64,000 nt of DNA from assembly GCF_054482525.1 (NCBI RefSeq), contig NZ_CM137006.1. The stretch is one strand, 5' to 3'. Below, one piece after another: positions 18,451 to 49,036 of the stretch. The stretch's first letter is position 1, and each line of letters opens with the position of its first letter. The notes beneath the pieces are model-generated. The model did no database searches, was not told where the DNA came from, and saw only the letters and a list, made by a program, of their open reading frames with translations. Position numbers and translations under genes: made by a program.

Positions 18451-18461
18451 GTTGTTCCTGG

Positions 18462-30852: not shown

Positions 30853-32688
30853 CTCCACGACTTCGGGCAATACTTTCAGGCTGTTTGTGGATTTTTCCGG
30901 ACAGTTTCAGCGGGACGGAACCATCAGCACGTTCATCACGCCTTTTTTGTTGCTCCCTGGCACTTTTCAGTTCATCCACAATATAGCTGCTCTTCTCGCA
31001 TTTTTGCCGATTTTAAAAATGCGAACAAAACATCCGTACATGATGTACAGATTAAACTGCCAGGGACTGGTGTCAGAAAACCTCCGGTTAGCCTGCTCTT
31101 TCCGGAATGTGCCGGTTATGAAAAACCGGAAATTCAGTCTCTGTTGTAAGATGTACCCTCTGATACTACGTTTTCGTTTTCTCTGTGTATTTAACTCACT
31201 GTATTTATTGTCTTTTTAAGCCTGACTGATATTCTCCGGTCATAGTGTGCCTGATAGACATCCCGTAACCTTCTCATTTTTATATAAAAATACCTGCACT
31301 GTCTTCAGCGCATCTGTCTCCTTTAAGTAAAAAATGTTTTCACGTATTGCTGTAAATTCATTTTAAATCAGTATGTTATCCTGATATTGCTGTCTCCTGG
31401 TTTGATGCGTAATCGTTCTGCCTTTCTGGATGATTCTGGTGCTTCCGGGTGCATTCTCCTCTGCACATGCAACAGTTCGTCATCGCCACGTGCCCAAAAG
31501 CATATAAAAACGAATCGAATCTGATCGTTTTTTCAATCGTTTTTCACAGGAATTTCGTAGGGTGTTCTCCGCTATAGCCTCCATATTTGCTGTCTTTTTC
31601 TTCATAAATCGTATGCAATATAACCAGTCTGTCAAGACATCTTCCCTGCTGTTGAGGTGACGATCTCATTTCTGGTCTTTTCCGGGAGAGAGACGGTCAG
31701 ATGAGCGAGCCGGATTTACTGCCAGAGGTACTCCCCGCGGCAGAAAATAGTGCTCCTGTTTCCGCAATCCGGGATCGGCAACGTCCCATGGTTAATGCCA
31801 CTTGCAGCGTCAGGCACTGCAGGTTTACGTCGTGATCTGATTTCTTCTGCACTTATCCCGATCACGGAAGTTCCCCCTGCGCAGACATCGGTTCCTGCCG
31901 ACATCTCACAATACCGCCAGGCAGTCATGCAGTAACACCCGCAATGCGGTCTGCGGTTTTAAGCGCACTCTCCTGTATTCAGTGCACCGATAATGCATCA
32001 TAGAAAGTCCGGGGGGAGTTACTGAATGTCTGTTAAGTGGTGCCGTGGGTGGAGACTGCTTACTTTTCCACAGTAACTGCAGTCATTCAGGATGCTCAGG
32101 AGAGAATATGTCAACGCCACGGGCCGGGCCATTTTCATGCCAGCCAGGATATTTTCAATATTGATGCTGTCTGCTTTTCACCATTTCATCCTCACTGACT
32201 GATGTTGTATTTTTGTGCAGCACTACAGATTTGCGTTTCTCTTTTAACTGGTCACGCTCTCCTTTGATATTCAGCGTGGTTGAGTGATGCAGCAGTTGAT
32301 TCAGGATTGCTGTTGCCCTGCAACCACCATATCAACTTCTTCCCGGCATGCCGGCGCTGGTATCCAGGCCGGGTTTCGAAGTGAAGCGTTCCTGACGGAC
32401 TCATTGATATCCGGGCCGGATGTAGTCATGCAGCATGGAACGTCTACCCGTATACACTGACGGCGTCCGGCCGTGTACATCTCTTCCGCGGTTCAGGGAG
32501 CAGCTGTCGCCATGTACTTATTGTCACCAGGAGAGGCATGTACCGCAGCATGCCAGCTCAGCAGTGACAGGATGCCCTTAAGACATCCGTCATGGCTCAG
32601 TATGACGACGCCCCCGCTCTGCAGGTGAGCATGCGGGGCCGGGAGCAGCATTCCCGTATTTTGCCGCACCTTCCGGAAGCAACCGGCA

Positions 32689-33297
32689 TCAGTTACGGTT
32701 ATCGTCAACCGTTGTGCGGTATGCCAGGAGCACGTACTGATCCATCAGATCCGCCAGTGCTGCGTTCTGCTTCTGACGGTCGATGATCCATTCCCCCAGC
32801 TCTTTTTCTGATTTACGTTTCAGGTTCTCCGTCCAGTCGTCAAGGCTGTTTCCGGTCATTAAATCAAGCCAGCAAAGCCAGACCAGTTTGAGGCGCAACT
32901 CAGTGCCACCAAACTGACGGAAGAGGCTGATCAGTTTATTTGCCAGAGAACGCTGCCTCAGACGTTCACATTCAGACAGCAGAATGCCTTCCAGCATCGG
33001 ATGATGAACCAGCAGATGTTCGCTGGTGCATAAGTTCACCACCAGATCATCATCCAGGGGCGGCGTGGCCCGTTTGTCAGAGCCATAAATCAGCCGGTGC
33101 AGACTCCGGGGGACGATGGCAATCTCCGGTTTTTCACCATTGAATGACACCCACCCGGGCGTCAGATTATGGAAGTAGTGGATATTCGGATGACACACGC
33201 CCCAGGATACGGCGTGCCGGGTGAAGCCGGTCAGCCATTTCTGGTAGCTTTCGTGGAGCAGCTCGTAACGGGTCTGATACTGTGGTTTCATTTTCAT
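32689..33297 (-). CDS. Hypothetical protein downstream of alpA
   Basis: About 200-aa ORF; ATG 33297 behind GTGAGGAA; no motif recognised. Confidence 0.5.
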   Translation of the reverse strand: MKMKPQYQTRYELLHESYQKWLTGFTRHAVSWGVCHPNIHYFHNLTPGWVSFNGEKPEIAIVPRSLHRLIYGSDKRATPPLDDDLVVNLCTSEHLLVHHPMLEGILLSECERLRQRSLANKLISLFRQFGGTELRLKLVWLCWLDLMTGNSLDDWTENLKRKSEKELGEWIIDRQKQNAALADLMDQYVLLAYRTTVDDNRN

Positions 33298-33384
33298 ATT
33301 CCTCACGGGGGATAACAGGCAGCAGAACGCCGCCGGCAGGCCGGAGATTGCGTCTGCTGTGGGTGAAGGGGCAGTGGTTAAAAA

Positions 33385-33570
33385 TTACGGACGGGACTGT
33401 GCAATACGCGCCTGCAGCCAGGCTTCCACTTCACTTTTCAGCCAGCGGGAGCTGCGGCCAAGTTTGATGGGAGCCGGAAAGGCCCCATCCTTGATGAGCT
33501 TGTAAAACCACTTATCGGTCAGGCCGGTCAGCTGAGTGATAAACGCCATATCGACCATCTGGTCATCCAT
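33385..33570 (-). CDS. alpA: AlpA-family transcriptional regulator
   Basis: 61 aa; ITQLTGLTDKWFYKLIKDGAFPAPIKLGRSSRWLKSEVEAWL is AlpA/Vis-like. Confidence 0.8.
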   Translation of the reverse strand: MDDQMVDMAFITQLTGLTDKWFYKLIKDGAFPAPIKLGRSSRWLKSEVEAWLQARIAQSRP

Positions 33571-33580
33571 CAGCGAAACT

Positions 33581-33588
33581 GGGGGGGG
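33581..33588 (-). repeat. C8 homopolymer (coding strand) between an SD-preceded ATG (33592) and the alpA start
   Basis: GGGGGGGG on + strand; upstream ATG with GGAGG; current length gives a 9-codon out-of-frame mini-ORF overlapping the alpA ATG. Confidence 0.5.
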
Positions 33589-33975
33589 TCATAAAAATCT
33601 CCTCCGGATGTTGTTAATCTCAACCGGCGTTGATGATGAAAACAACGCACCACCTTCACCGGCATAACAACCGGGGAGAAACGTAAAAAATCAGTAGGGG
33701 AATATTCCTGCCAGGAGAGAAACGGTTGTGTACAGGCAATACAGGTTGTCTGTTTTGTCAGTGAAGCCGGTATAAACGGAAGATGATTTTGTGTTGCCGG
33801 AATATGGGATGGTATTTTGTCGTGACGGAATCAGTATTTTCAGTGATGATTATTACTGCGCAGGGGAGTACCGGAGAGAAACCACGCCCTGTACCTGCCA
33901 GAGCGGTGGTTTGTATTGACTGAACGGAAGATAAAGCGAGGTAAACACTGTTGTGGTGAGCGGAGAAGACTGAGA

Positions 33976-34767
33976 TTATTCTCTGTAATTACAAACAACA
34001 GTGATCTTATCCGGTTTTTTTACCGTTACGGGTTTCAGGGGATCAATTTTATAGACCGGGGTAATGACCACGCCGTAATTTATGGAGAAAAGCGGGATCC
34101 AGCAATAAACGTCAGGATATTTCTGTGTCTCCGGAATACCTTTTGTGCCAGAGGCCATCAGATCTTTAACGCTCACGAAAAATGACTTCCGCAGATCAAA
34201 AAAGTACTCGTTATATATCACATCCTTTGCCAGCAGGATGACTGCATTACCAACAGCCGATTTTACAGGTGTTTCATCAGGTGGATTATCGTGATTGTAT
34301 ATTGTTCTTTCTATATAAATAAAACAGGCATATTTCGTCTTCTCCCCGGATAGTTGCATCTGGTATTCGCAAATGTCTTTGATATACCGACTTTCAACCC
34401 TTCCAATCATCTTATCCCGGCGATAGTGTCTTTTATGTTTCAGCGCGTACAGAACACCATTTGAACTGTCAAACTCCAGGACACTTCTGGTGAAAAGTTT
34501 GTTTTCCCAGATCTCCAGACAATACTTCTCTGCACTGACGACATTGCGTTTGTGGGGAAGATCCCGTTGATACACTCCATTTAATAAGCGTGACTGCAGT
34601 TCGCCTGCAAGTTGATAGTAACAGTTAATGTCATTAAGGACAGGTGCTGTGGCGTTGAGTAATGTGTTGATTACCTTAGAGCGCGAAAGTTTGTGGGTAT
34701 GACAGTACTCATCCACAATTCGCAGTGTCTCATCACTGGTCATATTGAAAGTTATACGTGTTGTCAT
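33976..34767 (-). CDS. Hypothetical protein with N-terminal ribbon-helix-helix-like domain and ~220-aa unknown C-terminal domain
   Basis: 263 aa; N-terminus MTTRITFNMTSDETLRIVDEYCHTHKLSRSKVINTLL fits a beta-strand/two-helix RHH pattern; low GC. Confidence 0.55.
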   Translation of the reverse strand: MTTRITFNMTSDETLRIVDEYCHTHKLSRSKVINTLLNATAPVLNDINCYYQLAGELQSRLLNGVYQRDLPHKRNVVSAEKYCLEIWENKLFTRSVLEFDSSNGVLYALKHKRHYRRDKMIGRVESRYIKDICEYQMQLSGEKTKYACFIYIERTIYNHDNPPDETPVKSAVGNAVILLAKDVIYNEYFFDLRKSFFVSVKDLMASGTKGIPETQKYPDVYCWIPLFSINYGVVITPVYKIDPLKPVTVKKPDKITVVCNYRE

Positions 34768-35094
34768 GATGAAGTTTTCTGTTAATCATACTGGTTGATA
34801 TGCATAACATTTCATAAAAAATACTGTTAATTCATATAATTGATTTTTTGACTGGTTTTATCCTCGTGTGGTGGAAAGCAGTATTACTGCCACTGTAGTC
34901 AGCATAAATCTATCACACAGAACCACCGAAAATGAAGCATTGCTCAGGGGGAAGCTGCCACTCGTATGAGTTCTCTGAACCATGATAACCAGTATTTTTC
35001 GTTTTGGGTGATTTGTTTATCGTTACAGCTACATACAGTTCATGTACCATTAAAAAATAATAAAGGTTAATTAGTATTATTTATAGAAGTATGT

Positions 35095-35300
35095 TTATGT
35101 AATTCTACCGTGTAAATGAACCCTGTAATTCTACCTTGTAAATACACCTTGTAACCAAGTCCTGTAGAAGTCTGTCTCATAGAAGTATCTGTGCAGTGAT
35201 ATTCTCTGTAGTAGTACTTGTAACTCTGTCCTTAACTCTCTCTTCAGTAATGTAGTCCCGCAACACCTGAATATAAATCTGTAATGTTCACACACTGACT
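35095..35300. repeat. Iteron-like direct-repeat array in AT-rich leader
   Basis: Tandem GTAATTCTACC(G/T)TGTAAAT (35100-35145) followed by many TGTA(A/G) half-sites; lies in the 1.4-kb ORF-poor region upstream of the Gp2-like gene at 36183. Confidence 0.5.
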
Positions 35301-36182
35301 GTAACGTGCTTTGTTAAGTAATGTCTGCTATTTTTTTCTGTTATTTTTCCTGTTGTTTTCTGTATTTTGTTGTATGGTGTAATAACTATTCTGAACCCGT
35401 CATCACCTTTATAGCTAAGAGTATGACTTCGCCAGTGTTGATACTGTGGATAACGGTGATTAAGGAATTACTGTTAATGATCTGTTCCTGCAGCTCACCT
35501 GATGAGTTTTGGTAGTAATACGTAAAAGAGTATGCCTCATGTCATTAAAAAGTCTTCCGGAGTGTTGTTTAACCCTGTACCTCTGTTACTCATGTAGTAC
35601 GTTGCGGAAAGCTACGTTAATTGTAATATCTGGTTATGGCGTTATGCCTTCAGTATTAAAAACATCTTTTACCGGAGAAACTGGGAAGTGGAAAGGCTTT
35701 CGGGATAACGTCAGGCCATTATGACGATATTACGTTAATCACAGTACAAGATAACGAGAGGGTAATGGAATTTTAAACCAGAGTAGTTCCACTGTTGTTC
35801 ACTGGAAAAAGTGATTTCCCACGCGCGTTATAAGCTTACTCCAGAGGAGATGGAAGCCTTCAACTCTGCGGTCGATCACCGGCTGGCAGAACTGACCATG
35901 AACAAACTTTACGATCGTGTTCCCGCTTCAGTCTGGAAATATGTTACCTGATAAATGTTTCTGATGAAGTACAGTCGTCACAATGACATCACTTCAGATA
36001 TTATCTGCGCTGTGATTGACTGTCACGTATGCCGTTCTCTGTATGGTTCTGATACCCGGGTGTGGTCCCACTTTCTCTGTGGCGCCCGGGGAGTTGTGAA
36101 CCTGCACGTCTTCGTGTGATAACGTTTTCTTCAAAAATTACGCCAGCGCTTCTTCCTGTGTTACAGAACACGAGGAAGAAAC

Positions 36183-36782
36183 ATGAAGACTTACAACACC
36201 AATCCCGGTTACGAAATGGATCCCCAGCTCCTGACACACTTTAACCAGCATCTGGATTCATTATTCGGGGTATATTCGAAACTGTTACCGTTCAGAATGG
36301 ATTTTGCTTACCGAAAAAACACCCTCAGCTACAGATGTGCCTGCAGGTACGCCATGTGCGCGGAGATACTGCGACTGATTAACGAAGTGGGAGAGAAACT
36401 GGTCGGGTATGCCTGGGTAATGGAATATACGGAACGTAAAGGGCTTCACATTCATTTTGTGGGCTATCTGAACGGTCAGAGCCACAGGAGTTCGTATCTG
36501 GTATCCAGATTGATGGGAGATATCTGGAGGCGGGTTACCGAGGGTGATGGTTACTACCACTGGTGCCGGTTTAATAAAAATTATCCGGTAAACATTAACC
36601 ACGTCATTCACTATTCAGATCACAAAGCGGTGAATGCCTTACGCTATGCCATCAGCTACCTGGCCAAACGAGAACAGAAAGAATGTGGCATCATCCTGAA
36701 ATGCAGCGGGCTTCCTGAAAAAAGTAATCGGGGTCGACCGCGACTGGGCAGCCCCCTGCCGGAGACTTATTCTCTGGTGTAA
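36183..36782 (+). CDS. Gp2-like protein (YfjJ/YagK family; inovirus replication-initiator-like)
   Basis: 199 aa; family pattern LPFRMDFAY...KGLHIHFVGYLNG...LRYAISYLAKREQKECG. Confidence 0.75.
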   Translation: MKTYNTNPGYEMDPQLLTHFNQHLDSLFGVYSKLLPFRMDFAYRKNTLSYRCACRYAMCAEILRLINEVGEKLVGYAWVMEYTERKGLHIHFVGYLNGQSHRSSYLVSRLMGDIWRRVTEGDGYYHWCRFNKNYPVNINHVIHYSDHKAVNALRYAISYLAKREQKECGIILKCSGLPEKSNRGRPRLGSPLPETYSLV

Positions 36783-37090
36783 GACCCTGAACGACAACTA
36801 CGGGCTGGCGCTAATTGTTACAGTCGGTTCCGGAGGCCACTTCAGGGACTCTGCGCATTTTTTACGACATGGCTATTCCGTATGAACCATACGGAGATTT
36901 AACCATGGCACATTCTTTACCATTCCTTCCGGCAACCGATACAGCACATCCTCCGATGTCCATCCCTGCCTGCTGACAGTTTTTTACGCCGGAGGGCCAT
37001 TGTGTGACAACCACAGTGCTGTAACAGCAACCAGCCTGCTTTACCCAAACTCCAGTCCAGATTTTAACTGAACCGCCATTCACACCCTGA

Positions 37091-39290
<2,200 letters not shown>

Positions 39291-39302
39291 GCTTTTCATA
39301 CT

Positions 39303-39803
39303 TTATGAACGTACATCAGCAAAATGCGTCAGTAATTTTTGATTAATGTCTTTAAACAGTTCACGTTCATCATAGGTCAGAGGACTCCAGATTTCTTTCA
39401 GGTACTGGTTTTGTGTAAGGGTAATGCCCTGAATAAAGGACAGGCCTTCAGATGTCAGACTGATTTTTTTAGCACGGCGGTCCTCTTTGCTATCAGTTCT
39501 TTCTGTATATCCGGCTTTTTCTAAAAAATCTGTAATGCGGGTAATGTTTGTTCTGGTAAACTGGAGTTCTCTGCTGATCTCTGAAGGCGAAAGACAATGA
39601 TTATCTGCTGTAGATAATACGGTGAGAACCATATATGTTGAGTAATTTATTCCGTATCCTCCCAGCATTCTCGATATATTATCCTGTATTTTCTTGTTTG
39701 CACGGATACAGAGTTGTATCAAAAGATGTTCCTGACAGGGATACAGGGGATCTTTGTTTTGTTGATATTTGATTATCTTCTCTAATGAGTGTATGTTTTC
39801 CAT
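39303..39803 (-). CDS. MarR-family regulator, possibly PapX/SfaX/FocX-like
   Basis: 166 aa; winged-helix LSPSEISRELQFTRTNITRITDFLEKAGYTER; low GC; stop codon lies 1-2 bp from the IS100 end. Confidence 0.65.
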   Translation of the reverse strand: MENIHSLEKIIKYQQNKDPLYPCQEHLLIQLCIRANKKIQDNISRMLGGYGINYSTYMVLTVLSTADNHCLSPSEISRELQFTRTNITRITDFLEKAGYTERTDSKEDRRAKKISLTSEGLSFIQGITLTQNQYLKEIWSPLTYDERELFKDINQKLLTHFADVRS

Positions 39804-40603
39804 TTAATCATTTTCCATATACTGAAACATTCTGCCTTTATATAAAAGTGCATCAGTCATCCGGTAAATATCTACTTTTCACAACAATCTATGACTGCCT
39901 GATATCTGTATGAGTGAGGCGGCCCGGCAGAGAGTAAGAGCAGATTCCTTCAAATAAAAGAACATAAATGTTCATCGCTGACAAGATGGTGAAAGAATTA
40001 TTTATACTGTTAAATCAGTATAGATAATCTATCTGCCCCTGTGCTTTGTTGAACGAATCCTGACGGCCCTGAATATTCATGCAATATTATTTTATTCAGT
40101 GCACGGTAATATCCTGATTTCCATAGCATGGTGGATATGTGTATCCGGGATGGATGTTTACCAGAACCTTCTCTGTTCCAGTGTGTGGAGTTTTACAGAA
40201 GAGGCGACTGTATGCAACTCTTGCCCCGTAACTGTCTTTATTCGTTTCTCCACACTCTCCGGACATTGTAAATTCCAGATGTGTGGCAGTGTGTTTTTCG
40301 TAAATCGTACACAATGCATTTTTACACGGAGTTCAGCCAGTCGTATCACTGAGAGTTTTTTTTCTGATTTGTACCACTCATGCAGCAGTGATAAGGAGAT
40401 ATTTTCTCTGTCGGGCCAGCAGGGGCGGTGCCACCTGTTTAGTTTTCTTATGTTTGGTAAAAGAGAGGCTAAAATATATACAACAGGCGTATGTAATGAT
40501 TCATATTGTTAATCATTAACCAGTAAGAATTAATGTAGTGGATCGGTAATTCAGGACACCTCGAAATCCTGTTAATGTTAAAACAGTGAAAATGGGGTGA
40601 TGC

Positions 40604-40921
40604 ATGAGCAAAACTCGTCGGACTAAACGCACCTTTTCCCCGGAGTTCAGGCTCGAAGCTATCGAGCAAGTAGTTAAATACCAGCGCGATGTCAGAGAAG
40701 TCGCGCTGGCACTTGAGCTCAATCCTGACCATTTGCGTAAATGGATACGGTTGTATAAGCTGGAACTTCAGGGTATTGAGCCCGCTGGTAATGCCATACC
40801 CCTGAACAGCGAGAAATTCAGCAGCTTAAAAGCGCAGATAAAGCGCCTTGAGATGGAAAAAGAAATACTAAAGCAGGCTGCCGTGCTGATGAGCGAAATC
40901 CCCGGCAAGCTGTCGCGCTAA
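40604..40921 (+). CDS. IS3-family transposase OrfA (element A)
   Basis: 105 aa; HTH plus leucine-zipper-like C-terminus ...KRLEMEKEILKQAAVLMSE. Confidence 0.75.
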   Translation: MSKTRRTKRTFSPEFRLEAIEQVVKYQRDVREVALALELNPDHLRKWIRLYKLELQGIEPAGNAIPLNSEKFSSLKAQIKRLEMEKEILKQAAVLMSEIPGKLSR

Positions 40922-41040
40922 TCACACTGCTGAAAGCAAAGCGGCCAGTGCGGATTATTTGTCATTTATTCGGTGTTCACCGTAGCGTTTATTACGCGCA
41001 GGTGAAGCGTCCTGTTAATGTATCAGCGCCAATGATATAA
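40918..41040 (+). pseudogene. IS3-family OrfB 5' fragment (element A), cut by insertion of element B
   Basis: In the -1 frame after orfA; about 40 codons (…RPVRIICHLFGVHRSVYYAQVKRP…) then ends at the terminus of the inserted element. Confidence 0.5.
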
Positions 41041-41325
41041 GACAGTAATTAGGATTCGGACGATTTCCTGGACTGCTTTATTATGCCAGCCCGCATTGTT
41101 GGCGGTACATTTCAGGGATGACTGCACCCAGCGAAAATTTTATACGCCGCTCGTTATACCATCTGATGTAAGCATCCACATGCCGCATGAATTTTTCAGG
41201 CGTGATACCCAATCATTTACGCCCATAATATATTTCAGTTTTCAGTCTGCCGAAAAAGCCTTCGCATGCAGCATTATCAGGCGAGCATCCTTTACGGGAC
41301 ATTGAGCGAATAAGGCCTGCTGTAT

Positions 41326-41796
41326 TCACTCTTTCCAGCCAGGCCAGCGATAATGCCCACCTCTGTCACTGTGTATCACCGGTCGTTCGCCAGCATTTAA
41401 CGTTTCGACAGCGTTATCCAGCATAGTGTTGACCAGTTCAGCATCGGGGCGTGTACTGAGAGACCAGCTCACAACTTTTCTGTCGAAGCAGTCCACCACC
41501 GGTGATAGCCAGACTTTTCCTGCAGGAAGCTGGAACTCCGTGATATCTGTCAGCCATTTCTGATTAGGTTGCTCCGCCTTAAAATCTCTGGCGATAAGGT
41601 TATCCGGAGAAGGTCCGATTTCTCCGCAATATGAGCTGTAGCGGCGATGACGGTTACGGCTGACGACAAGCTGTTCCTCCACCATAAGTCTGCGTACAAC
41701 CTTTTCTGATAGCCGATCCCCCTCATGCCTGAGCATCGCATGCAGGCGACGATAGCCATAACACTGGTAATTACTGTTAAATATATCTGTCAGCAT
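41326..41796 (-). pseudogene. IS3-family OrfB fragment (element B)
   Basis: 156 aa covering the N-terminal and part of the catalytic region; the C-terminal region continues in another frame. Confidence 0.6.
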
Positions 41797-41904
41797 CGTA
41801 CGTATCGTGGCGTATTTATCACTGGCTTTCAGTGCAGCCCGGTGATAAAAATAACTGCTACGGGCAAGGCCCAGAACATGCAGTAATTCTGTCAGGGGAT
41901 ATGT

Positions 41905-42608
41905 TTATCTCAGGGCATCAGTAATCTTTGTTTTTTCTCTGTTGTTCAGGTGACTGATGCTGATGCCCGGGTCTTTTTTTATTATTTCCTCCGCTTTTTT
42001 CAGAATATCCAGTTCCATCTGCCGGCGGCGTATTTCCTGATTCAGTCGGGCGACTTCCTCCCGCAACGCATCGCGTTCTGCCTCCAGGGAAGGGGCGTTA
42101 TGTTTACGCATAGTCTGGTAAGCACTGTTGCCGATAATTTCATCTTTCCATTTATACAATACCGCGCGACTGACACCAATACGCCTGGCGATTTCACTGG
42201 CTGATCCTTGTCGTGTACAGAGTACCATGACAGCCTGACGTTTGACTTCTGGTTCAAAGGACGCAACCGGATTGGTCTTACTGGTAAATACACGTCGTCT
42301 GTCGGGGGAACGTTCATTAACCCAGCGAGCGAGCATATCGGTACAGGGATAACCCAGAGTCCTGCTGGTAAACGCCAGGCAGCAGCCGTGGTTAAGATAA
42401 TGTTCAACGGCAACCTGTTTTTGCTCATCGGAGTAACGGTGCTTATGACGAATGGATTCTTTTGATCCGCCACCTGCTTCCCATGAACGGATCCAACGCC
42501 GCAGATTTCTTTTCGAAGGGTAGCCCAGTTCGCGTACGACGGGGCCAGCTTCTTACCATATTTGAAATAAAGCTCAATGGTGCGAATTTTTTGTTCTTCA
42601 GTAAACAT
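41905..42608 (-). pseudogene. IS3-family OrfA, frameshifted (element B)
   Basis: Two overlapping ORFs in different frames together cover one orfA (MFTEEQKIRTIELYFKYGKK... and ...LYKWKDEIIGNSAYQ...EVARLNQEIRRRQMELDILKKAEEI). Confidence 0.6.
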
Positions 42609-42858
42609 GTTTCATCTCCTGAGAGTCCAGGAAATCGTCCGCATCCCCTAACGGTCAAAAATCGTGGCGTTGATACAGGGGAAATCCGTAGTTTTTGATG
42701 CCAGCCATAACGTGTTTGACTATAAAGTATTACGAAAGGACTTTAATGAGCCCCTGGAATAATTCATTAAAGTAATTTACTTCGCTATCCTTTTCCCAGT
42801 TACTCACAAAGAAAAATATTCATAAAATAATTCCCGGGCTGGCAGCCCGGGATGATTA

Positions 42859-44121
42859 CTATTTTAATGGATTGTTAATCTTTGCATATTCAAACGGGCT
42901 GATACATTGTTCTCTGTTCGCACCCAGAAAATCTGCCCACCACTGTAGCATCAGTCGACGTTCTTCCAGATGTTCTGCTTTATGGATATATGCAGCACGT
43001 ACACCATTACGCTCCTGATGGCTCATCTGACGTTCCACAGCATCGCGGGACCACAAACCTGATTCAATCAATGCACTGCACGCCATCGCCCGGAATCCAT
43101 GACCACAGACTTCCTGGGTTGTGTCATATCCCATCACCCTCAGGGCTTTATTTACAGTATTTTCACTGATCGGTTTACGCGGGTCATGTGCTCCCGTAAA
43201 GATCAGACCATTTTCACCAGCCCATGTCTGTAGTTCTGTCAGTATGGCTACAGCCTGTTTGCTGAGTGGCACAAGATGTGGTGTTCGCATCTTGGAGCCC
43301 CGGTGTGAGTATTTTACGCCTGGCAGAGGTTCGCGTTCGGCTGGAATAGTCCACATGGCATTGTCAATATCAATTTCAGACCAGCGGGAATATCTGAGTT
43401 CACTGGAACGAATAAAAACCAGTAAATTCAGCATAACTGCCAGTCGGGTGACAGGCTGACCTTTATAACCGTCAATACGCGACAGAAGTTCAGGCAGGCG
43501 TGAAAGATCCAGAGCAGGGCGATGCTGGCGTTTTACCGTGGTCAATGCACCAGCCATATCCAGAGCCGGGTTATATCTGATGATGCCAGACTGTACGGCA
43601 TAACGCATTACAGCAGATATTCTTTGCTGCAGACGACTGGCGATTTCATAAATTTGTTTTGCTTCTGCAGCACGAACAGGGATAAGCAGGTCCGGGGTAT
43701 TGAGTGTTGTGATATCCCGGTTGCCGATAAAGGGGAAAACGTGTGTCTCGAGGCTTTTGATTACTTTATCGCTGTGTGATTGTGCCCATTGTTTATTACT
43801 GGCATGCCAGCGTCGTGCAATATGTTCAAAAGAGAGTTGTAAATCAGGGACTACTTTTTTAGCTCTTTTTTGTTCGCAAGGGTCAATCCCCTCTGAAATC
43901 AGTTTTCGGGCCTCATCCCGTTTTGTACGAGCTTCGGAGAGAGAAACTTCTGGATATACACCAAGTGCCAGAGTCTTCTCCTTACCCAGAATACGATAAC
44001 GGAGACGCCAGTAACGGGAACCATTAGGATGAACCAGCAGGAACATGCCAGCCCCGTCAGTGAGTTTATAAGCCTTGTCAGTGTGCTTTGCAGCCCGGAT
44101 TTTTGCGTCAGTCAGTGCCAT
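42859..44121 (-). CDS. int: P4/CP4-57-type tyrosine integrase
   Basis: 420 aa; MALTDAKIRAAKHTDKAYKLTDGAGMFLLVHPNGSRYWRLRYR N-terminus; C-terminal catalytic region with R...HxxR...Y. Confidence 0.9.
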   Translation of the reverse strand: MALTDAKIRAAKHTDKAYKLTDGAGMFLLVHPNGSRYWRLRYRILGKEKTLALGVYPEVSLSEARTKRDEARKLISEGIDPCEQKRAKKVVPDLQLSFEHIARRWHASNKQWAQSHSDKVIKSLETHVFPFIGNRDITTLNTPDLLIPVRAAEAKQIYEIASRLQQRISAVMRYAVQSGIIRYNPALDMAGALTTVKRQHRPALDLSRLPELLSRIDGYKGQPVTRLAVMLNLLVFIRSSELRYSRWSEIDIDNAMWTIPAEREPLPGVKYSHRGSKMRTPHLVPLSKQAVAILTELQTWAGENGLIFTGAHDPRKPISENTVNKALRVMGYDTTQEVCGHGFRAMACSALIESGLWSRDAVERQMSHQERNGVRAAYIHKAEHLEERRLMLQWWADFLGANREQCISPFEYAKINNPLK

Positions 44122-44286
44122 AGTTCAGCCTTCTGAATGCGTTAAAGAGGGTACAAATTCTGTCGAACTGGGGTATACCCGCAATTATACCCACACAATG
44201 GGGTTGATGTGGGGGGAATCTGGTTGAGTTCGGTAGAATTGATTTGGAGGCAGAACGCTTAAATTGTGGCGTTCTGAAACGAAAAA

Positions 44287-44306
44287 CGGACCTCCGTGGA
44301 GGTCCG
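44287..44306 (-). terminator. Hairpin CGGACCTCC-GTG-GAGGTCCG followed by T-run on the minus strand
   Basis: Perfect 9-bp stem between the tRNA-like repeat and the integrase gene. Confidence 0.4.
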
Positions 44307-44318
44307 TTGATATGAATT

Positions 44319-44340
44319 TGGTGCCCGGACTCGGAATGAA
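44319..44340 (-). repeat. tRNA-Phe 3'-end-like repeat (island att-site remnant)
   Basis: TGGTGCCCGGACTCGGAAT matches the reverse complement of a tRNA-Phe 3' end, then diverges; no full tRNA. Confidence 0.55.
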
Positions 44341-44584
44341 ACTGGTTATATAACCAATTGTTTTGTATCGACTGTTTTATCCTTGTTCTTTTTGAGGCCA
44401 CCAATGAGGCCCCCATGTGCAATTCGAATTCTTTTGACGCTATAATCCCTCTTTCTTGTGGTTTGTTGTAATCATTTTGTCTGGTTCGATATGCTGAATC
44501 GCGGAATCGAAGTGACAACAAAATACAGAGATTTATAAAATACCTGGCTACCTGTGTTAGGGAGCGTTAACGCACAGATTTTGT

Positions 44585-44911
44585 TTATGGCTGCCAGAAA
44601 TGATCTGATGGTTTGTCGTCTGGCTCTGCAAGTACCCTGTTGATATCCCGGGAACCATGAACGATACGTTCGATACGAACTTCAGTATCCAGTACCCTGA
44701 ACAGCAGAAGGTAACGACCATACGAACAACCTCTGATCCCAGCCCCTAACTCGGGTCTTTCTCTGTAGAGTACTGGCGATTCGGCTATCAACAGACATTG
44801 TTGGTAAAGCTCTTCGGTAAAACTGATTGCACGGACAGGATTATCCTGAGCGATCCAGTCACCTATAGCTTCAAGATCGTGTTCTGCTAATGGTGAAACA
44901 GTCAGTTTCAT
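44585..44911 (-). CDS. parE: ParE/RelE-superfamily toxin (type II TA)
   Basis: 108 aa; 4-nt overlap with the upstream antitoxin gene. Confidence 0.75.
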   Translation of the reverse strand: MKLTVSPLAEHDLEAIGDWIAQDNPVRAISFTEELYQQCLLIAESPVLYRERPELGAGIRGCSYGRYLLLFRVLDTEVRIERIVHGSRDINRVLAEPDDKPSDHFWQP

Positions 44912-45171
44912 ATTGGCTGTTCACCTTCTGCCATCTTTTTGTATTTGTGCGTCAGTCGCCCGAATACCTCTTCAGCACTTTTACTTTCACCGCTGTTGAT
45001 GCCTGCGGCCACGGCGCTCTGGAGTGATTCAAGCTTTATCTGCTGTTCCCGTTCTTCCAGAGCACGAAGTCCGGCACGAATGACTTCACTTGTATTGTTG
45101 TACCGACCACTTTCTATTTGTTCGCGGATAAACGTTTCAAAGTAAGGACTGAGGGATACACTGGTAGGCAT
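44908..45171 (-). CDS. parD: ParD-like antitoxin (type II TA)
   Basis: 87 aa; ...SEVIRAGLRALEEREQQ... ParD-type fold signature. Confidence 0.7.
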   Translation of the reverse strand: MPTSVSLSPYFETFIREQIESGRYNNTSEVIRAGLRALEEREQQIKLESLQSAVAAGINSGESKSAEEVFGRLTHKYKKMAEGEQPI

Positions 45172-45242
45172 GGTTATTTTCTCGCCGATTGATTACTATC
45201 AATTAATAATAGTTAATATTCGCGAATTGTAAAATACCTCTT

Positions 45243-46109
45243 TTATGCCTTGCGGCTTTTGTTCACTGTGCTTGCCAGGGCTTCCGGGTAGTGTCTGGCA
45301 ATAATATCATTAAGCCTGTCAACCAGCTCTGGTTTCCTGAACGTGATGTGCGCGGAGCCCTTCTTAAAGTATCTGATGCTGAACATCTCATCTTCATAGT
45401 CCTCTTTACCCTGAACAGACTGGATGTGATCATCCAGATGAATGGTGATGTTTTCCCGGTTGTCGGGGATCGGTTTGCCGCTGAACAGGTGCAGCATTCT
45501 TTCCAGATCGGCAAGTCGATCGGCCTGTTGTCCGGTGATAAGATGAAACCCCCACCGGTCCCACCTCACCAGATTGTTGACGATAATTTTACTGCCAAAT
45601 TTGCAGGGTGAATTGGTTTTGTAATTCCAGCTCAGTCCTCTGAAAACGTTGAGCACCCCTCGCTCAAACACTTCATCTTTGTTCTGGTGCAGTTGTTCAA
45701 ACGTGCTCAGGATATTTGCTTCGCTGATTTCCGGAAAATTATCGTACTCCAGTGACCGGTACCATGTATCACGGGCTTGTGCATCCATTAATGACAGCAT
45801 CCCTGAACGTTGCATCAGATCACGCCAGATTTCGCGGTCAAGGTTGCGGGTGATGGCTTTCATTGCGGTTTCCGGTTTTTCCATCAGCCAGCAACCGCAG
45901 CGAAAATCCTGTTTCATGGCCCAGTCCAGTGCAGTTTTACCTCCGATGCTTTCCGTCAGCACCGAGATTTCTGCCAGTTGCCGGATAAGTGTGTCGATTT
46001 GCAGCAGCGCACTCTTTCGTACAGCCAGAATGTGGCGGATGCTGGTTGAGCCGATAACGTCCGTATGCCCGTTGACCACTTCCGGACGGGGGGCTGTGAT
46101 TTCAGACAT
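45243..46109 (-). CDS. Conserved island protein, probably DUF4942 family (copy 2)
   Basis: 288 aa; paralog of 17326-18168. Confidence 0.6.
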   Translation of the reverse strand: MSEITAPRPEVVNGHTDVIGSTSIRHILAVRKSALLQIDTLIRQLAEISVLTESIGGKTALDWAMKQDFRCGCWLMEKPETAMKAITRNLDREIWRDLMQRSGMLSLMDAQARDTWYRSLEYDNFPEISEANILSTFEQLHQNKDEVFERGVLNVFRGLSWNYKTNSPCKFGSKIIVNNLVRWDRWGFHLITGQQADRLADLERMLHLFSGKPIPDNRENITIHLDDHIQSVQGKEDYEDEMFSIRYFKKGSAHITFRKPELVDRLNDIIARHYPEALASTVNKSRKA

Positions 46110-46193
46110 AATCGATATTCCTTTTTGCAGATAAATGAAAACGCCAGCCCTGTTCAGGCTGGCGTCAGTGGAATGAAGTCTGGTGAGTAAGAC

Positions 46194-46391
46194 TCACCGG
46201 TTCTGTTGCAGAAGCTGCAACTGGCGCAGGATACGGATATCCTCCCTGGCCTGTTCGATACAGGGCAACAGTGCTGCCGAATCCGTTCTATCCTCATCGT
46301 TGTCAAAGATAATTCCCGATTCGCAGTCGATATTGTCCTGTAGCCACGCAATCAGAATATCCAGTGCGGTTTCCGTGGTTAATGATTTCAT
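46194..46391 (-). CDS. Small conserved protein downstream of yeeW-like gene (copy 2)
   Basis: Paralog of 18253-18450; start at ATG 46391, 11 nt after the yeeW-like stop. Confidence 0.5.
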   Translation of the reverse strand: MKSLTTETALDILIAWLQDNIDCESGIIFDNDEDRTDSAALLPCIEQAREDIRILRQLQLLQQNR

Positions 46392-46402
46392 GTTGTTCCT
46401 GG

Positions 46403-46894
46403 TTACCAGTCGAAAGTGGGCAGGTCCGGCAGACATTCAGCGCTGGCATCCAGATGAATGAGACTGACGCCATAACGTCGGGTAAGTGTGACAACCAGAC
46501 GACGGAACGTTTTTGACAGGCCCAGGCGCTTAAGCCGCAGAACCGGGTATGACCACGCATCGGTACGTAACAGATATCCGCTACCTGTGAAATGAATCCA
46601 TTCTGATTCGCCGGTGCCATTCGTCTGATGTGACAGCGAGTACAGCCAGGCGTTGTCCTTTGCCGTGATATGCGCGGTACTGCAGCGTATGCCGGTAAGG
46701 GCCGCCGCAGATGATGGCGTGCGCTCTGCTGATGTCCGGTCAGATTCATCAACAACACGAAGGGAGTAACCGTTATCGCAGACCACGTTAATCAGTTCAG
46801 CGAGAGTAACACCATCGACGTCAACGACAATGCGCCCCATGTTCAGTGCCTGCACGTTAATGCTGTCGGCTTCCAGCGTCAGGGCCAGTTTCAT
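46403..46894 (-). CDS. yeeW: YeeW-like protein, full length (copy 2)
   Basis: 163 aa; intact counterpart of the truncated copy at 18462-18950. Confidence 0.65.
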   Translation of the reverse strand: MKLALTLEADSINVQALNMGRIVVDVDGVTLAELINVVCDNGYSLRVVDESDRTSAERTPSSAAALTGIRCSTAHITAKDNAWLYSLSHQTNGTGESEWIHFTGSGYLLRTDAWSYPVLRLKRLGLSKTFRRLVVTLTRRYGVSLIHLDASAECLPDLPTFDW

Positions 46895-47268
46895 TGTTTC
46901 GCCCCCGGATGTTTACCCAGGGTAATGTTATTTACCGTTCTGTAATTGTCGCGGGCCATCAGGCCGGTTGCCCGGCGGGCCCGGAGGATATCAATACTGT
47001 TTATTAACTGAGAACGGGTACAGGCGCTGAATCCTGGCTGGTCGGTACGTACCAGTGCGTATTTTTCAACGAGAAAGTTCACCGCATCGCACAGTGAAAT
47101 GCCTGCCTCAATATGCTGCTCAATCACACGTTCATCAGCGAACGGTGTGTCATTCAGTGTGAGGCCGTAATGCTGGTCCAACAGTCGGGTGAGCAGTGTC
47201 TGCCAGATGGTGACGGGAGACGGGCAGCGCGATGCCTCCCGTACGTGTGTGTCAGGTAATGTTTTCAT
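46891..47268 (-). CDS. cbtA: CbtA/YeeV-family toxin (copy 2)
   Basis: Start at MKTLPDTHV (47268); the track ORF extends upstream to 47370. Confidence 0.85.
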   Translation of the reverse strand: MKTLPDTHVREASRCPSPVTIWQTLLTRLLDQHYGLTLNDTPFADERVIEQHIEAGISLCDAVNFLVEKYALVRTDQPGFSACTRSQLINSIDILRARRATGLMARDNYRTVNNITLGKHPGAKQ

Positions 47269-47314
47269 CTTAAGTTCTCTGTAACTGGTAGTGCTAAAGG
47301 TGAGATATTCGGGG

Positions 47315-47689
47315 TTATGAGGTGGTTGCGGGTGCCAGTGTCGGATAAACAGCCATATAAACGTAACCACAACTGCTGAGGGTATCGGCTTTGCAGGTCA
47401 GCCCTTTTGCATACAGCGTGACGGTATGCTGATGGCGGGGATTCAGTTCACCGCTGGTGAGCATGAGTTCCAGTTGTTTCATCAGCAGCGGAAAGGCCTG
47501 GTCCAGATGGTACGCATCCGCGTCGCTGAACCGGCCTCTGATACCGGCGCGGTCTGCAAGGTAATGCAACCGGTTACCCTCCTGCACCAGACGTGCCCCA
47601 AAACAGGGCGTCACGGTGCAGGGTAGCCCCCACCAGGGGCGGTCGTTGTTATCGTCGGGATGCGTTGTCCCGGGGAGAGTGTCTGACAC
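47315..47689 (-). CDS. cbeA: CbeA/YeeU-family antitoxin (copy 2, intact frame)
   Basis: 124 aa, [42 protein letters not shown]...; GTG start. Confidence 0.8.
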   Translation of the reverse strand: MSDTLPGTTHPDDNNDRPWWGLPCTVTPCFGARLVQEGNRLHYLADRAGIRGRFSDADAYHLDQAFPLLMKQLELMLTSGELNPRHQHTVTLYAKGLTCKADTLSSCGYVYMAVYPTLAPATTS

Positions 47690-47768
47690 GATAAAATCCT
47701 CACAGAAAATTGGTTAAGAATGGTCCGGTGGTGGCGATAATTCTGCTCTTCTGAATGCCCTTCCAGAC

Positions 47769-47990
47769 TCAGTTCAGGGTGACGCTCATCAGCCGGACAT
47801 ACGGGCCAAAACTGTCCTTACGGCGTTCAGCAAACACGGCCAGCACACCGGGAATATCCTGCACTTCACGACCGGTATACGCTTCAGCACTGCCGTGCCA
47901 GCGGTATTTGCCGGTACAGAACGGAAAAAGACGGGATGCCGGATGCTGACGGTGAATACGCATGGCTTCGCCACGGGTGATGATTTTCAT
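47769..47990 (-). CDS. yeeT: DUF987/YeeT-like protein (copy 2)
   Basis: 73 aa paralog. Confidence 0.7.
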   Translation of the reverse strand: MKIITRGEAMRIHRQHPASRLFPFCTGKYRWHGSAEAYTGREVQDIPGVLAVFAERRKDSFGPYVRLMSVTLN

Positions 47991-48058
47991 AGTGGGATAC
48001 CTCTGAAGACAGAAGATAAAAGTGAAAACAGGTGTGATATGGTTGTGGCGGTGACGGG

Positions 48059-48550
48059 TTAAAGCAGACCGTGTTCCGCAAAGGAGAAAACCTGGTTGCC
48101 ACCAACTATCAGATGGTCCGGTACCCGGATATCCACCAGGGCCAGTGCCTGTACCAGGCGTTCCGTGATAAGGCGATCTGCCTTACTGGGGGTGACTTCA
48201 CCGGACGGGTGGTTGTGTGCCAGTATCACGGCAGCGGCATTGTGGTACAGGGCACGTTTAATTACCTCCCGGGGATGGACTTCCGTGCGGTTGATGGTGC
48301 CTGTGAAGAGGGTTTCACCGGCAATCAGCTGATTCTGGTTGTTCAGATACAGTACCCGGAACTCTTCCCGCTCCAGTCCCGCCATGTTCAGAATCAGCCA
48401 TTCCCGTGCCGCATGCGTGGAGGTGAAGGCCACACCGGGTTCATGAAGATGGCGGTCCAGGGTTTTCAGGGCCCGCAGAATGAGGCTGCGCTCGCCGGGC
48501 GTCATCTCTCCGGGCAGAAAGGAAAGCTGTTGCATTGTGCTTCTCTCCAT
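48059..48550 (-). CDS. yeeS: RadC-like JAB-domain protein (copy 2)
   Basis: 163 aa; HNHPSGEVTPSKAD. Confidence 0.85.
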   Translation of the reverse strand: MERSTMQQLSFLPGEMTPGERSLILRALKTLDRHLHEPGVAFTSTHAAREWLILNMAGLEREEFRVLYLNNQNQLIAGETLFTGTINRTEVHPREVIKRALYHNAAAVILAHNHPSGEVTPSKADRLITERLVQALALVDIRVPDHLIVGGNQVFSFAEHGLL

Positions 48551-49036
48551 TCAGTCGATGATGCGCATAATGGCGTTGCATTCCGGATGCTGCAGGGCGT
48601 AATCCCGCAACCGATAATAATGGACCGTCATGGCATAATTCTCTGTACGACAGGCGTGATGACTGTACGCCATCAGACAGGCGGCAATGCCGGCGGCTTC
48701 CGGGCTCATTTCAGCGCGGTTGCCGTTCATGGCATTGAACAGTACCCATGTTTCGTCATCATCGTCATCCGGTTCGGGTACCATAAATGCCCCACCGTTG
48801 TTCAGGGTGTACAGATTCCAGATACCACCGCAGTAGTCTTCGCAAAGACGGTCCATCCAGCCGAAGACACGGGGCTCCAGGGTCACCCACTGTGGAATGA
48901 GGCCAAAATGTTGCGGCCAGAAACTGATGCGCTGTTCATCAGGGACGGGAGTGGCAACCAGTTGAGACTGGTTATTCCCTGGTGCAGTGGTTACGGAAAC
49001 AGAAGGCGTGGTGGAGCTATGCGAAAAGGTTGTCAT
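48551..49036 (-). CDS. Antirestriction protein (KlcA/ArdB-like, copy 2)
   Basis: 161 aa paralog. Confidence 0.8.
   Translation of the reverse strand: MTTFSHSSTTPSVSVTTAPGNNQSQLVATPVPDEQRISFWPQHFGLIPQWVTLEPRVFGWMDRLCEDYCGGIWNLYTLNNGGAFMVPEPDDDDDETWVLFNAMNGNRAEMSPEAAGIAACLMAYSHHACRTENYAMTVHYYRLRDYALQHPECNAIMRIID

What the first reader, a model, noticed from the sequence alone, without database searches (positions are those of the whole stretch)
39303..40314. Orphan PapX/SfaX-like MarR regulator without its fimbrial operon
This low-GC MarR-type gene resembles the regulators encoded at the 3' end of P/S/F1C fimbrial operons, but no fimbrial genes precede it. The upstream region (39804-40600) has only short ORFs; one minus-strand ORF ending at 40096 might be the tail of a degraded adhesin gene. 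An orphan regulator could still act on motility or other targets.
Basis: partly seen in the sequence, partly recalled or inferred. Interest (0 to 1): 0.4.

Follow-up and report, generated by a model that had tools for sequence, protein, structure and literature searches.

The report
Stranded PapX-like motility regulator gene
This is an intact but divergent copy of the PapX/SfaX/FocX "X" regulator, which normally sits at the end of E. coli fimbrial operons and shuts off flagella; here insertion sequences have cut it away from any fimbrial genes, yet it keeps its own promoter, so it is an ordinary new member of a known family rather than a new kind of system.

Summary
Window 39303-39803 (minus strand) is an intact 166-aa MarR-fold gene ("winX"). 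It is about 72% identical in protein and 81% in DNA to PapX/SfaX. No other pap or sfa gene product matches anywhere in the 64-kb window.

The gene and 730 bp of upstream DNA (39291-40533) form a 1.24-kb fragment. IS100 bounds it 12 bp after the stop codon, and an IS3-family remnant bounds it upstream. The fragment lies in a decayed pheV/kps-type island.

The first about 200 bp upstream are homologous to the papX/sfaX proximal-promoter region, and the -35, -10 and start site are conserved. The next about 75 bp are a frameshifted remnant of the 3' end of a sfaY-like EAL gene, not of an adhesin. The remaining about 450 bp match nothing.

Several lines point to a stand-alone repressor of flhDC:
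- The recognition helix is identical to PapX's.
- The residues I recall as PapX's DNA-binding residues are invariant.
- A host genome carries the exact 29-bp site I recall as the PapX site upstream of flhD.
- winX is the only X gene in all 30 complete genomes that carry it.
- In ST131 strain EC958, an IS1-stranded papX still scores as a motility repressor.

Function was not tested. I file it as a new member of a known kind, of low to moderate interest.

The parts
39303..39803 (-). winX: intact 166-aa MarR-fold regulator of the PapX/SfaX/FocX 'X' family (RefSeq WP_001301088.1, annotated only as 'MarR family transcriptional regulator')
   Evidence: ORF. Pfam MarR and MarR_2. Protein identity is 71-72% to PapX/SfaX and 80-81% to the iol-linked orphan X. 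The AlphaFold model has MarR topology with mean pLDDT 78.6, and all top PDB matches are MarR proteins.
39946..39984 (-). Conserved proximal promoter: -35 TTGTCA (39984-39979), 19-bp spacer, -10 TTTTAT (39959-39954), and the A at 39946 that corresponds to the mapped papX/focX start site
   Evidence: Alignment with papX, sfaX and iolX upstream DNA and coordinates. PMC6246914 maps the papX/focX start to an A 144 bp upstream of the ATG, with hexamers 19 bp apart. The hexamer assignment is my inference.
39804..40009 (-). 5' region shared with papX, sfaX and focX (leader plus promoter)
   Evidence: blastn identity of 75-80% to regions upstream of papX and sfaX. It is 100% identical in L007, L008 and L020.
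40010..40085 (-). Frameshifted remnant of the last ~25 codons of a sfaY-like EAL gene
   Evidence: The DNA alignment to sfaY-sfaX runs to 40081. A 23-nt block has 20 identities, and 0 of 2000 shuffles reach its score. The translation MNIQGRQ...GADRLS compares with SfaY MNVQGCQ...GADELS.
40086..40533 (.). About 450 bp of unassigned DNA that always travels with this X allele; no detectable coding or RNA feature
   Evidence: Similarity to the rest of sfaY is not above shuffled controls (95 of 500 shuffles reach the score). There is no Pfam or NCBIfam hit and no real homologue in 1.84e9 proteins. There is no Rfam hit. The sequence is found only in identical copies.
37337..39290 (-). IS100 (istA/istB), whose end lies 12 bp after the winX stop codon; no target-site duplication
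   Evidence: istA and istB ORFs and annotation.
40534..41022 (+). Left end and frameshifted orfA of an IS3-family element that truncates the upstream DNA
   Evidence: The end of the element matches many plasmids and chromosomes (query positions 1-70). It is annotated as a frameshifted, incomplete transposase.
41081..42608 (-). Second IS3-family element (pseudogene) inserted into the first
   Evidence: Annotation; ORFs.
42673..42762 (+). 90-bp remnant of a phosphoethanolamine transferase gene; the intact gene lies between papX and the integrase in strain F11
42859..44121 (-). P4-type tyrosine integrase at the island end. The same int-to-winX module abuts yqgA-pheV in GCA_000687125.1, and homology to the window ends at about 44340

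Best explanation
winX is a divergent allele of the fimbria-linked 'X' regulators (PapX, SfaX, FocX). IS-mediated rearrangements removed the pilus operon it once terminated, together with almost all of the preceding sfaY-like EAL gene. What remains is a 1.24-kb fragment that still carries the family's own proximal sigma-70 promoter.

I infer that it is transcribed from that promoter, forms a MarR-type dimer, and binds the PapX site about 220 bp upstream of the flhDC start site, lowering flagellar gene expression and motility. Without a fimbrial operon to read through from, it would act as a fimbria-independent brake on motility. In the genomes that carry it, it is the only X protein.

Shown here: family membership, orphan status, the IS boundaries, conservation of the promoter sequence, conservation of the DNA-reading residues, and presence of the target sequence in one host genome. 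Inferred only: expression, DNA binding and any effect on motility.
For: Family:
- DNA identity is about 81% and protein identity 71-72% to annotated papX/sfaX, across the full 166 aa.
- The MarR fold is supported by Pfam, PDB sequence matches, an AlphaFold model and Foldseek.

DNA-reading parts:
- Residues 82-98 (FTRTNITRITDFLEKAGY) are identical to PapX of strain F11. The wHTH segment 50-120 is 82% identical, against 61-65% for the N- and C-terminal helices.
- K37 and R110 are invariant in 13 X-family proteins. They correspond to PapX K54 and R127, which I recall as DNA-binding residues from Reiss & Mobley 2011.

Constraint: dN/dS is 0.25-0.36 against iolX, PapX and SfaX.

Promoter: the TTGTCA and TTTTAT hexamers (19-bp spacer) and the start-site A align with papX/sfaX. 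PMC6246914 reports that this proximal promoter drives papX and focX independently of the operon.

Target: winX-carrying strain 746 has the exact 29-bp sequence TTACGGTGAGTTATTTTAACTGTGCGCAA in an IS-free uspC-flhD intergenic region, about 420 bp upstream of the flhD ATG. That position agrees with the '220 bp upstream of the TSS' given in PMC6246914.

Precedent: in EC958, papX is stranded between two IS1 copies with papH-papG deleted. It was still a TraDIS hit for enhanced motility (PMC5425062).

No redundancy: all 30 complete genomes with winX have exactly one X-family locus.
Against: There are no expression or binding data for this allele.

All 30 complete-genome copies, and the assembly contig L020, have an identical gene sequence. 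Nothing can therefore be said about selection since the gene was stranded; the dN/dS values reflect older divergence.

The surrounding island is decaying. A close relative, strain GF43, has lost winX and its promoter to an IS3 insertion at the position equivalent to 40137, so the gene is dispensable.

The dimerisation helices differ by about 35-40% from PapX.

The X homologue VatX (44% identity to PapX) has no effect on motility (PMC6246914).

The identities of the 29-bp site and of K54/R127 rest on my memory of a paper that could not be opened.
Confidence: 0.55

Rival explanations
1. winX is an inert relic. It is a recently stranded gene that is still intact only because too little time has passed, and it does nothing useful; either it is not expressed enough or it has no consequence.
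For: The fragment is bounded by IS elements in a heavily rearranged island, and IS100 has no target-site duplication. All copies are identical, so persistence carries no signal of selection. GF43 lost the gene. The exact allele is rare, in 30 of 5426 complete genomes.
Against: The ORF is full length, with a Shine-Dalgarno-like GGAA upstream, and both promoter hexamers are intact. The same 5' part survives in a second genomic context beside pgaA/ycdT with a different IS boundary. A second orphan lineage, iolX, is also kept intact in 46 genomes. The stranded papX of EC958 is functional.
Confidence: 0.22
2. winX is an active regulator whose targets or signal differ from PapX's. It might act on type 1 fimbriae or island genes, or respond to a different ligand, so that motility is not its main output.
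For: The N-terminal and C-terminal helices, which form the dimer and ligand region in MarR proteins, are only 61-65% identical to PapX, while the wHTH is 82% identical. PMC6246914 shows that X proteins also regulate each other, with FocX repressing papX, without a recognisable PapX site. VatX shows that an X homologue can lack a motility role.
Against: The recognition helix is identical and the wing DRR motif is invariant, which argues for the same DNA specificity. The flhD site is present and intact in a host genome.
Confidence: 0.18
3. It is a generic MarR/MprA-type regulator that only resembles PapX superficially and never belonged to a pilus operon.
For: RefSeq names it only 'MarR family transcriptional regulator'. 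The best NCBIfam model is MprA at 125.5 bits.
Against: The MprA score is below its cut-off of 157. Protein identity to PapX/SfaX is 71-72% over the full length, and homology continues about 280 bp upstream into the sfaX leader and the sfaY tail.
Confidence: 0.02

Closest known systems
PapX (P-fimbrial operon, CFT073/F11), the MarR-like repressor of flhDC
   Same: 166-aa MarR fold. Protein identity is 71%, the recognition helix is identical, and the K54/R127 equivalents are conserved. The proximal promoter is homologous. Like papX of CFT073 and EC958, it lies in a pheV-type island.
   Different: No pap genes precede it. The N- and C-terminal helices differ by about 35-40%. A stop codon directly upstream of the ATG rules out the 183-aa form that RefSeq annotates for PapX.
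SfaX/FocX with SfaY (promoter-distal genes of S and F1C operons)
   Same: Protein identity is 72%. The upstream homology reaches further than with pap loci (to 40081) and includes the tail of the EAL gene sfaY, so the ancestor had a Y-X arrangement.
   Different: Only about 25 frameshifted codons of the Y gene remain, and no sfa or foc structural genes remain.
IS1-stranded papX of ST131 strain EC958
   Same: An X gene cut off from the pilus assembly genes by insertion sequences, keeping about 320 bp of upstream DNA. It was still found to repress motility by TraDIS.
   Different: EC958 keeps a canonical papX allele and retains papI, papB and a frameshifted papA nearby. winX is a divergent allele with no pap remnant at all.
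iol-linked orphan X ('iolX', WP_001066241/242)
   Same: This is the closest full-length relative, at 80-81% protein identity, and its C-terminal third is the most similar. It is also orphan and cut by an IS3-family element about 170 bp upstream.
   Different: It sits in a different genomic place, beside an inositol catabolism cluster, and is a different allele present in 46 genomes.
VatX (X gene next to the vat autotransporter)
   Same: A MarR-like X gene that is not attached to a fimbrial operon (PMC6246914).
   Different: It is only 44% identical to PapX and has no motility phenotype. winX is much closer to PapX.

Membership tests
MarR family (winged helix-turn-helix dimeric regulators) | Sequence match to the MarR wHTH domain above curated cut-offs | tested here: met
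   PF01047 scores 40.7 bits against a cut-off of 24.6, and PF12802 scores 41.2 against 27. There are 47 PDB MarR sequences at E<=1e-3.
MarR family (winged helix-turn-helix dimeric regulators) | MarR fold: N- and C-terminal dimerisation helices flanking an HTH plus beta-wing | tested here: met
   The AlphaFold model has helices 2-17, 23-48, 54-65, 73-80 and 84-97, a wing at 100-116, and helices 118-139 and 144-165; mean pLDDT is 78.6. All top Foldseek PDB hits are MarR proteins such as MftR, PecS and MarR, with probability 1.00.
X family (17-kDa PapX/SfaX/FocX regulators) | High full-length identity to PapX/SfaX/FocX, far above the usual 25-35% between MarR proteins | tested here: met
   Protein identity is 71-72% and DNA identity about 81% over all 166 codons. 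The nearest named proteins in the 5.8-billion-protein search are SfaX and PapX.
X family (17-kDa PapX/SfaX/FocX regulators) | Encoded as the 3'-terminal gene of a P, S or F1C fimbrial operon | tested here: not met
   No pap or sfa protein other than X matches the window, and IS elements lie on both sides. Only a sfaY-tail remnant shows the former linkage. This feature is positional; the EC958 papX also fails it.
X family (17-kDa PapX/SfaX/FocX regulators) | Own proximal promoter upstream of the X gene, homologous among papX, focX and sfaX | tested here: met
   The sequence is conserved: -35 TTGTCA, a 19-bp spacer, -10 TTTTAT and the start-site A, matching the description in PMC6246914. Promoter activity was not tested.
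X family (17-kDa PapX/SfaX/FocX regulators) | DNA-binding residues (PapX Lys54 and Arg127) and recognition helix conserved | tested here: met
   K37 and R110 are invariant in the 13-sequence alignment, and the helix FTRTNITRITDFLEKAGY is identical to PapX of F11. The role of these residues is recalled from Reiss & Mobley 2011, which could not be opened.
X family (17-kDa PapX/SfaX/FocX regulators) | Binds the flhD promoter site and represses motility | not testable with these tools
   Only the precondition could be checked: the exact 29-bp site is present in carrier strain 746.
MprA/EmrR equivalog (NCBIfam NF008122) | Score at or above the curated cut-off of 157 bits | tested here: not met
   The score is 125.5 bits.

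The most novel reading that the evidence does not exclude
The X gene with its promoter (and, ancestrally, the Y-X pair of EAL gene plus MarR gene) may be a portable cross-talk module between adhesins and motility that moves and recombines among loci. It occurs at the end of chaperone-usher operons (pap, sfa/foc and a pap-like operon in L023). It also occurs at the end of a type IVb pil operon (L025/L026). It occurs as an IS-bounded orphan in at least three further places: the pheV island, beside the iol cluster, and beside pgaA/ycdT. Mosaic alleles exist, with the winX 5' two-thirds joined to a papX 3' third.

On this reading, winX would be a domesticated stand-alone member that sets a constant, fimbria-independent level of flhDC repression in a lineage that has no other X protein.
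Probability: 0.25. Interest if true: 0.4.

Novelty: new member of a known kind. Interest (0 to 1): 0.25.

Why it matters
X proteins are the known link between adhesin expression and flagellar shut-off in extraintestinal E. coli. A divergent X allele that has lost its operon, keeps its promoter and is the only X gene in its lineage is a natural test of whether these regulators act independently of fimbriae. It also shows that gene-presence screens keyed to papX, sfaX or focX, and RefSeq naming, miss some X-family motility regulators: winX in 30 and iolX in 46 of 5426 complete genomes. The practical consequence is modest. It is a candidate modifier of motility in one lineage and a caution for virulence-gene typing.

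Tried and rejected
**Adhesin remnant.** A tblastn of PapG, PapF, FocH, SfaS-like and SfaG proteins against 39205-40700 gave only chance-level hits. The same was true for a PapG-like adhesin from L023.

**Rest of a Y (EAL) gene in 40086-40533.**
- The Pfam EAL model does not hit any frame at E<=10, though it does hit SfaY itself.
- A local DNA alignment to sfaY scores no better than shuffled sequence.
- The EAL protein of L025 gives nothing.
- By eye I saw a weak 'RVK' motif match to SfaY, but I dropped it as statistically unsupported.

**Any homologue of the upstream ORFs.** I searched a stitched three-frame translation against 1.84e9 proteins. It returned only ORF calls from the same DNA plus a spurious repeat-driven hit to a eukaryote-type CAP-domain protein.

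**An intact ancestral operon.**
- A 24-mer from 40480-40503 in metagenome contigs found 4 contigs, all with the same IS-bounded context.
- Contigs encoding the closest proteins (L007, L008, L019, L020) are all IS-bounded.
- A peptide-pattern scan of 100,044 species-representative genomes found no X relative. This scan is limited to two exact peptide patterns.

**Other checks.**
- There is no Rfam family in 39200-40700.
- There is no intrinsic terminator, and no excess of promoter-like sites in the generic scan; that scan allows only 16-18-bp spacers and so cannot see the 19-bp-spacer promoter.
- The malX/cit island context seen in strain 746 turned out not to apply to this window. The window is colinear with strain AH50 and lacks that 29-kb segment.

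Full report
**1. What is there**

The ORF at 39303-39803 on the minus strand is real: 166 aa with an ATG start. It exceeds the Pfam cut-offs for MarR and MarR_2. It matches 47 solved MarR proteins by sequence. It gives an AlphaFold model with the canonical MarR layout, mean pLDDT 78.6, and the best PDB fold matches for that model are all MarR regulators. The ORF is AT-rich, at 37.7% GC against 47.5% for the window. The best NCBIfam model is MprA/EmrR, but the score is below its cut-off (125.5 against 157 bits), so it is not that protein.

**2. It belongs to the PapX/SfaX/FocX family**

Of 5426 complete E. coli genomes, 1395 hold a sequence similar to this gene. In about 1300 of them it is the gene RefSeq calls papX or sfaX, at about 81% DNA identity over the whole length. 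Against PapX of strain F11 and SfaX of strain 8178, protein identity is 71.3% and 71.9%.

Identity is uneven along the protein. The wHTH core (residues 50-120) is 82% identical to PapX, while the N- and C-terminal helices are 65% and 61% identical. The stretch FTRTNITRITDFLEKAGY, which forms the predicted recognition helix, is identical to PapX.

K37 and R110 are invariant across 13 X-family proteins. They correspond to PapX Lys54 and Arg127 in the 183-aa numbering. I recall these from Reiss & Mobley 2011 as needed for DNA binding, but that paper could not be opened, so this point rests on memory.

dN/dS against PapX, SfaX and the iol-linked relative is 0.25-0.36.

**3. It is orphan**

A tblastn of every pap (F11) and sfa/foc (8178) operon protein against the whole window finds only the X gene. 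RefSeq annotation of genomes colinear with the window shows no fimbrial gene in the region. These genomes are AH50 for 30000-44500 (100% identity) and strain 746 for 37337-60603.

The window carries, in order:
- a kps capsule cluster;
- a CP4-like module with Ag43;
- IS100;
- winX;
- two nested IS3-family remnants;
- a 90-bp remnant of a phosphoethanolamine transferase gene;
- a P4-type integrase;
- a second CP4-like module.

In assembly GCA_000687125.1 the same integrase-to-winX module lies directly beside yqgA and the pheV position. Canonical papX also lies near a pheV-type tRNA-Phe in EC958.

**4. Boundaries**

Homology with every other X locus stops 12 bp after the stop codon, at 39291. 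The terminal inverted repeat of IS100 begins there.

IS100 spans 37337-39290. Its two flanks are unrelated and carry no target-site duplication (AGCAC against GCTTT). It therefore marks a rearrangement rather than a simple insertion. Strain 746 has a different left junction, with an extra 29 kb of cit/acnB/malX DNA.

Upstream, the non-IS sequence ends at 40533, where an IS3-family end begins (query positions 1-70). The stranded fragment is therefore 39291-40533, or 1243 bp.

**5. The 730 bp upstream**

*39804-40009.* This part aligns with the DNA upstream of papX, sfaX and the iol-linked X. PMC6246914 reports that papX and focX are transcribed both with their operons and from a proximal promoter. 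That promoter's start is an A 144 bp upstream of the ATG, and its hexamers are 19 bp apart. In F11 the A at -144/-143 is preceded by TTGTCA, 19 bp and TTTTAT. The window has the same hexamers at 39984-39979 and 39959-39954, and the corresponding A at 39946. Assigning the hexamers is my inference.

A one-base deletion and a TAA directly before the ATG rule out the 183-aa form that RefSeq annotates for PapX and SfaX. A GGAA lies at Shine-Dalgarno distance. PMC6246914 also numbers PapX from the 166-aa start: its A97T and M103T differences fall on EKAGY and KRM.

*40010-40085.* This part matches the last codons of sfaY, the EAL-domain gene (Pfam EAL, E=3e-18) that precedes sfaX. A 23-nt block has 20 identities, and none of 2000 shuffles reaches its score. 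The translation reads MNIQGRQ and then, after a frameshift, GADRLS, against SfaY MNVQGCQ...GADELS. The F11 pap locus keeps a similar degenerate Y tail between papG and papX, so this remnant is a family trait rather than a local accident.

*40086-40533.* This part is unassigned. It shows no similarity to the rest of sfaY beyond chance, to adhesins, to Pfam, NCBIfam or Rfam, or to 1.84 billion protein representatives apart from ORF calls on the same DNA.

**6. Relatives and distribution**

The exact allele occurs in 30 of 5426 complete genomes. It is always 100% identical and is always the only X-family locus in the genome.

The same upstream DNA and the first two-thirds of the gene occur, base for base, in two other assemblies (L007, L008). 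There the last third of the gene and the 3' flank are of papX type. In L007 the fragment lies beside pgaA/ycdT and is cut by a different IS3 element at the position equivalent to 40376. X alleles therefore recombine, and this 5' half has been stranded at least twice.

A second orphan lineage is 80-81% identical to winX. It lies beside an inositol cluster, is cut about 170 bp upstream, and occurs in 46 genomes.

More distant X proteins (67-70% identity to winX) occur at the end of a pap-like operon (L023). They also occur, preceded by an EAL gene, at the end of a type IVb pil operon (L025/L026).

No copy with an intact upstream operon was found for winX in complete genomes, in metagenome contigs or among species representatives. 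Strain GF43, which shares the island at about 99% identity, has an IS3 element at the position equivalent to 40137 and lacks winX.

**7. Likely mechanism**

PapX and FocX repress flhDC and swimming. The effect depends on a PapX site centred 220 bp upstream of the flhDC start site (PMC6246914).

In winX-carrying strain 746 the uspC-flhD intergenic region is free of IS elements. It contains the exact 29-mer TTACGGTGAGTTATTTTAACTGTGCGCAA at L014:4579-4607, about 420 bp upstream of the flhD ATG. I recalled that sequence as the PapX site. Its position fits the paper's description, given a leader of about 198 nt, which is my own knowledge.

An IS1-stranded papX in EC958, with papH-papG deleted, was still recovered as a repressor of motility by TraDIS (PMC5425062). 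An X gene left with only its proximal promoter can therefore work.

Putting these together, the best-supported reading is that winX is expressed from its own promoter and represses flhDC independently of any fimbriae (confidence 0.55). Expression, binding and phenotype are inferred, not shown.

**8. Rivals**

- *Inert relic (0.22).* The identical copies give no signal of selection, the island is decaying, and GF43 lost the gene.
- *Active but retargeted (0.18).* The dimer and ligand helices have diverged, and VatX shows that an X homologue can lack a motility role. However, the DNA-reading surface is conserved.
- *Generic MarR unrelated to fimbriae (0.02).* This is refuted by the full-length identity to PapX/SfaX and by the homology that continues upstream.

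**9. Novelty and score**

This is a known family in a known kind of situation: X genes outside fimbrial operons (vatX) and an IS-stranded papX are already on record. What is new is a divergent, unnamed allele that is the sole X gene of its lineage, together with the observation that X genes exist as recombining modules in several contexts. I rate it a new member of a known kind, with interest 0.25.

Noticed in passing
L007:5988-7070 and L008:1-1304 against window 39291-40594: These are mosaic X alleles. The upstream DNA and codons 1 to about 98-118 are 100% identical to winX, but the last third of the gene and the 3' flank are of papX type. This indicates recombination between X genes.
   Followed up: partly
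L002:14001-14501 and L003:14001-14501: A second orphan X lineage ('iolX') is 80-81% identical in protein to winX. It lies next to an inositol catabolism cluster, is cut by IS3-family DNA about 170 bp upstream, and is present in 46 of 5426 complete genomes. It is annotated only as a MarR family regulator.
   Followed up: partly
L025:8985-10501 and L026:4202-5718: An EAL gene plus an X gene (70% identical to winX) sit at the 3' end of a type IVb pil operon (secretin, PilO, ATPase, PilS, shufflon PilV). The Y-X pair is therefore not restricted to chaperone-usher fimbriae. An IS100-like element lies just downstream there too, at a different position.
   Followed up: no
window 39804-39830; L004:12232 and L005:12159: RefSeq annotates PapX and SfaX as 183 aa. 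In winX and iolX a stop codon lies immediately upstream of the conserved ATG, and a GGAG/GGAA lies at Shine-Dalgarno distance from it. The 166-aa start is therefore probably the true one across the family.
   Followed up: partly
window 37337-39290: IS100 has no target-site duplication, and its left junction differs between carrier genomes. AH50 and the window have a truncated zinc-ribbon gene there, whereas strain 746 has IS66 remnants preceded by a 29-kb cit/acnB/agaR/malX segment that the window lacks.
   Followed up: partly
L017:13300-14620 (strain GF43), equivalent to window 40137: A closely related island (about 99% identical) carries an IS3-family element at this point. It lacks winX and its promoter but keeps 40137-40533.
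   Followed up: yes
L005:11897-12000 (strain F11): The about 100 bp between papG and the papX leader retain a degenerate copy of the sfaY 3' end (…GAATTATCCGCGATTACTGAGCAGTATGGATAA). This suggests that papX was derived from a Y-X arrangement.
   Followed up: no
window 1-14600: A group 2/3-type capsule (kps) cluster lies here: kpsF-like SIS gene, kpsE, kpsD, kdsB/kpsU, kpsC, kpsS, and a region-2 set with glf and glycosyltransferases. An IS4 follows at about 15363-16709.
   Followed up: no
window 17300-25350 and 44580-50000: There are two CP4-like island modules, each with CbtA/YeeU-type toxin-antitoxin pairs, RadC/JAB, antirestriction, DUF932 and DUF4942 genes. The left one is followed by an Ag43/Cah autotransporter (22428-25349). 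A RelE/ParD pair lies at 44585-45171.
   Followed up: no
window about 44337-44340: Homology with contigs where the integrase abuts yqgA-pheV ends here. ARAGORN finds no tRNA anywhere in the window. The integrase is therefore internal to a tandem or composite island in this genome.
   Followed up: partly
Genome-contig scan: No X-family relative was found in representatives of 100,044 bacterial and archaeal species using two conserved peptide patterns. The family may be confined to non-reference E. coli strains, though the scan's sensitivity is limited.
   Followed up: no
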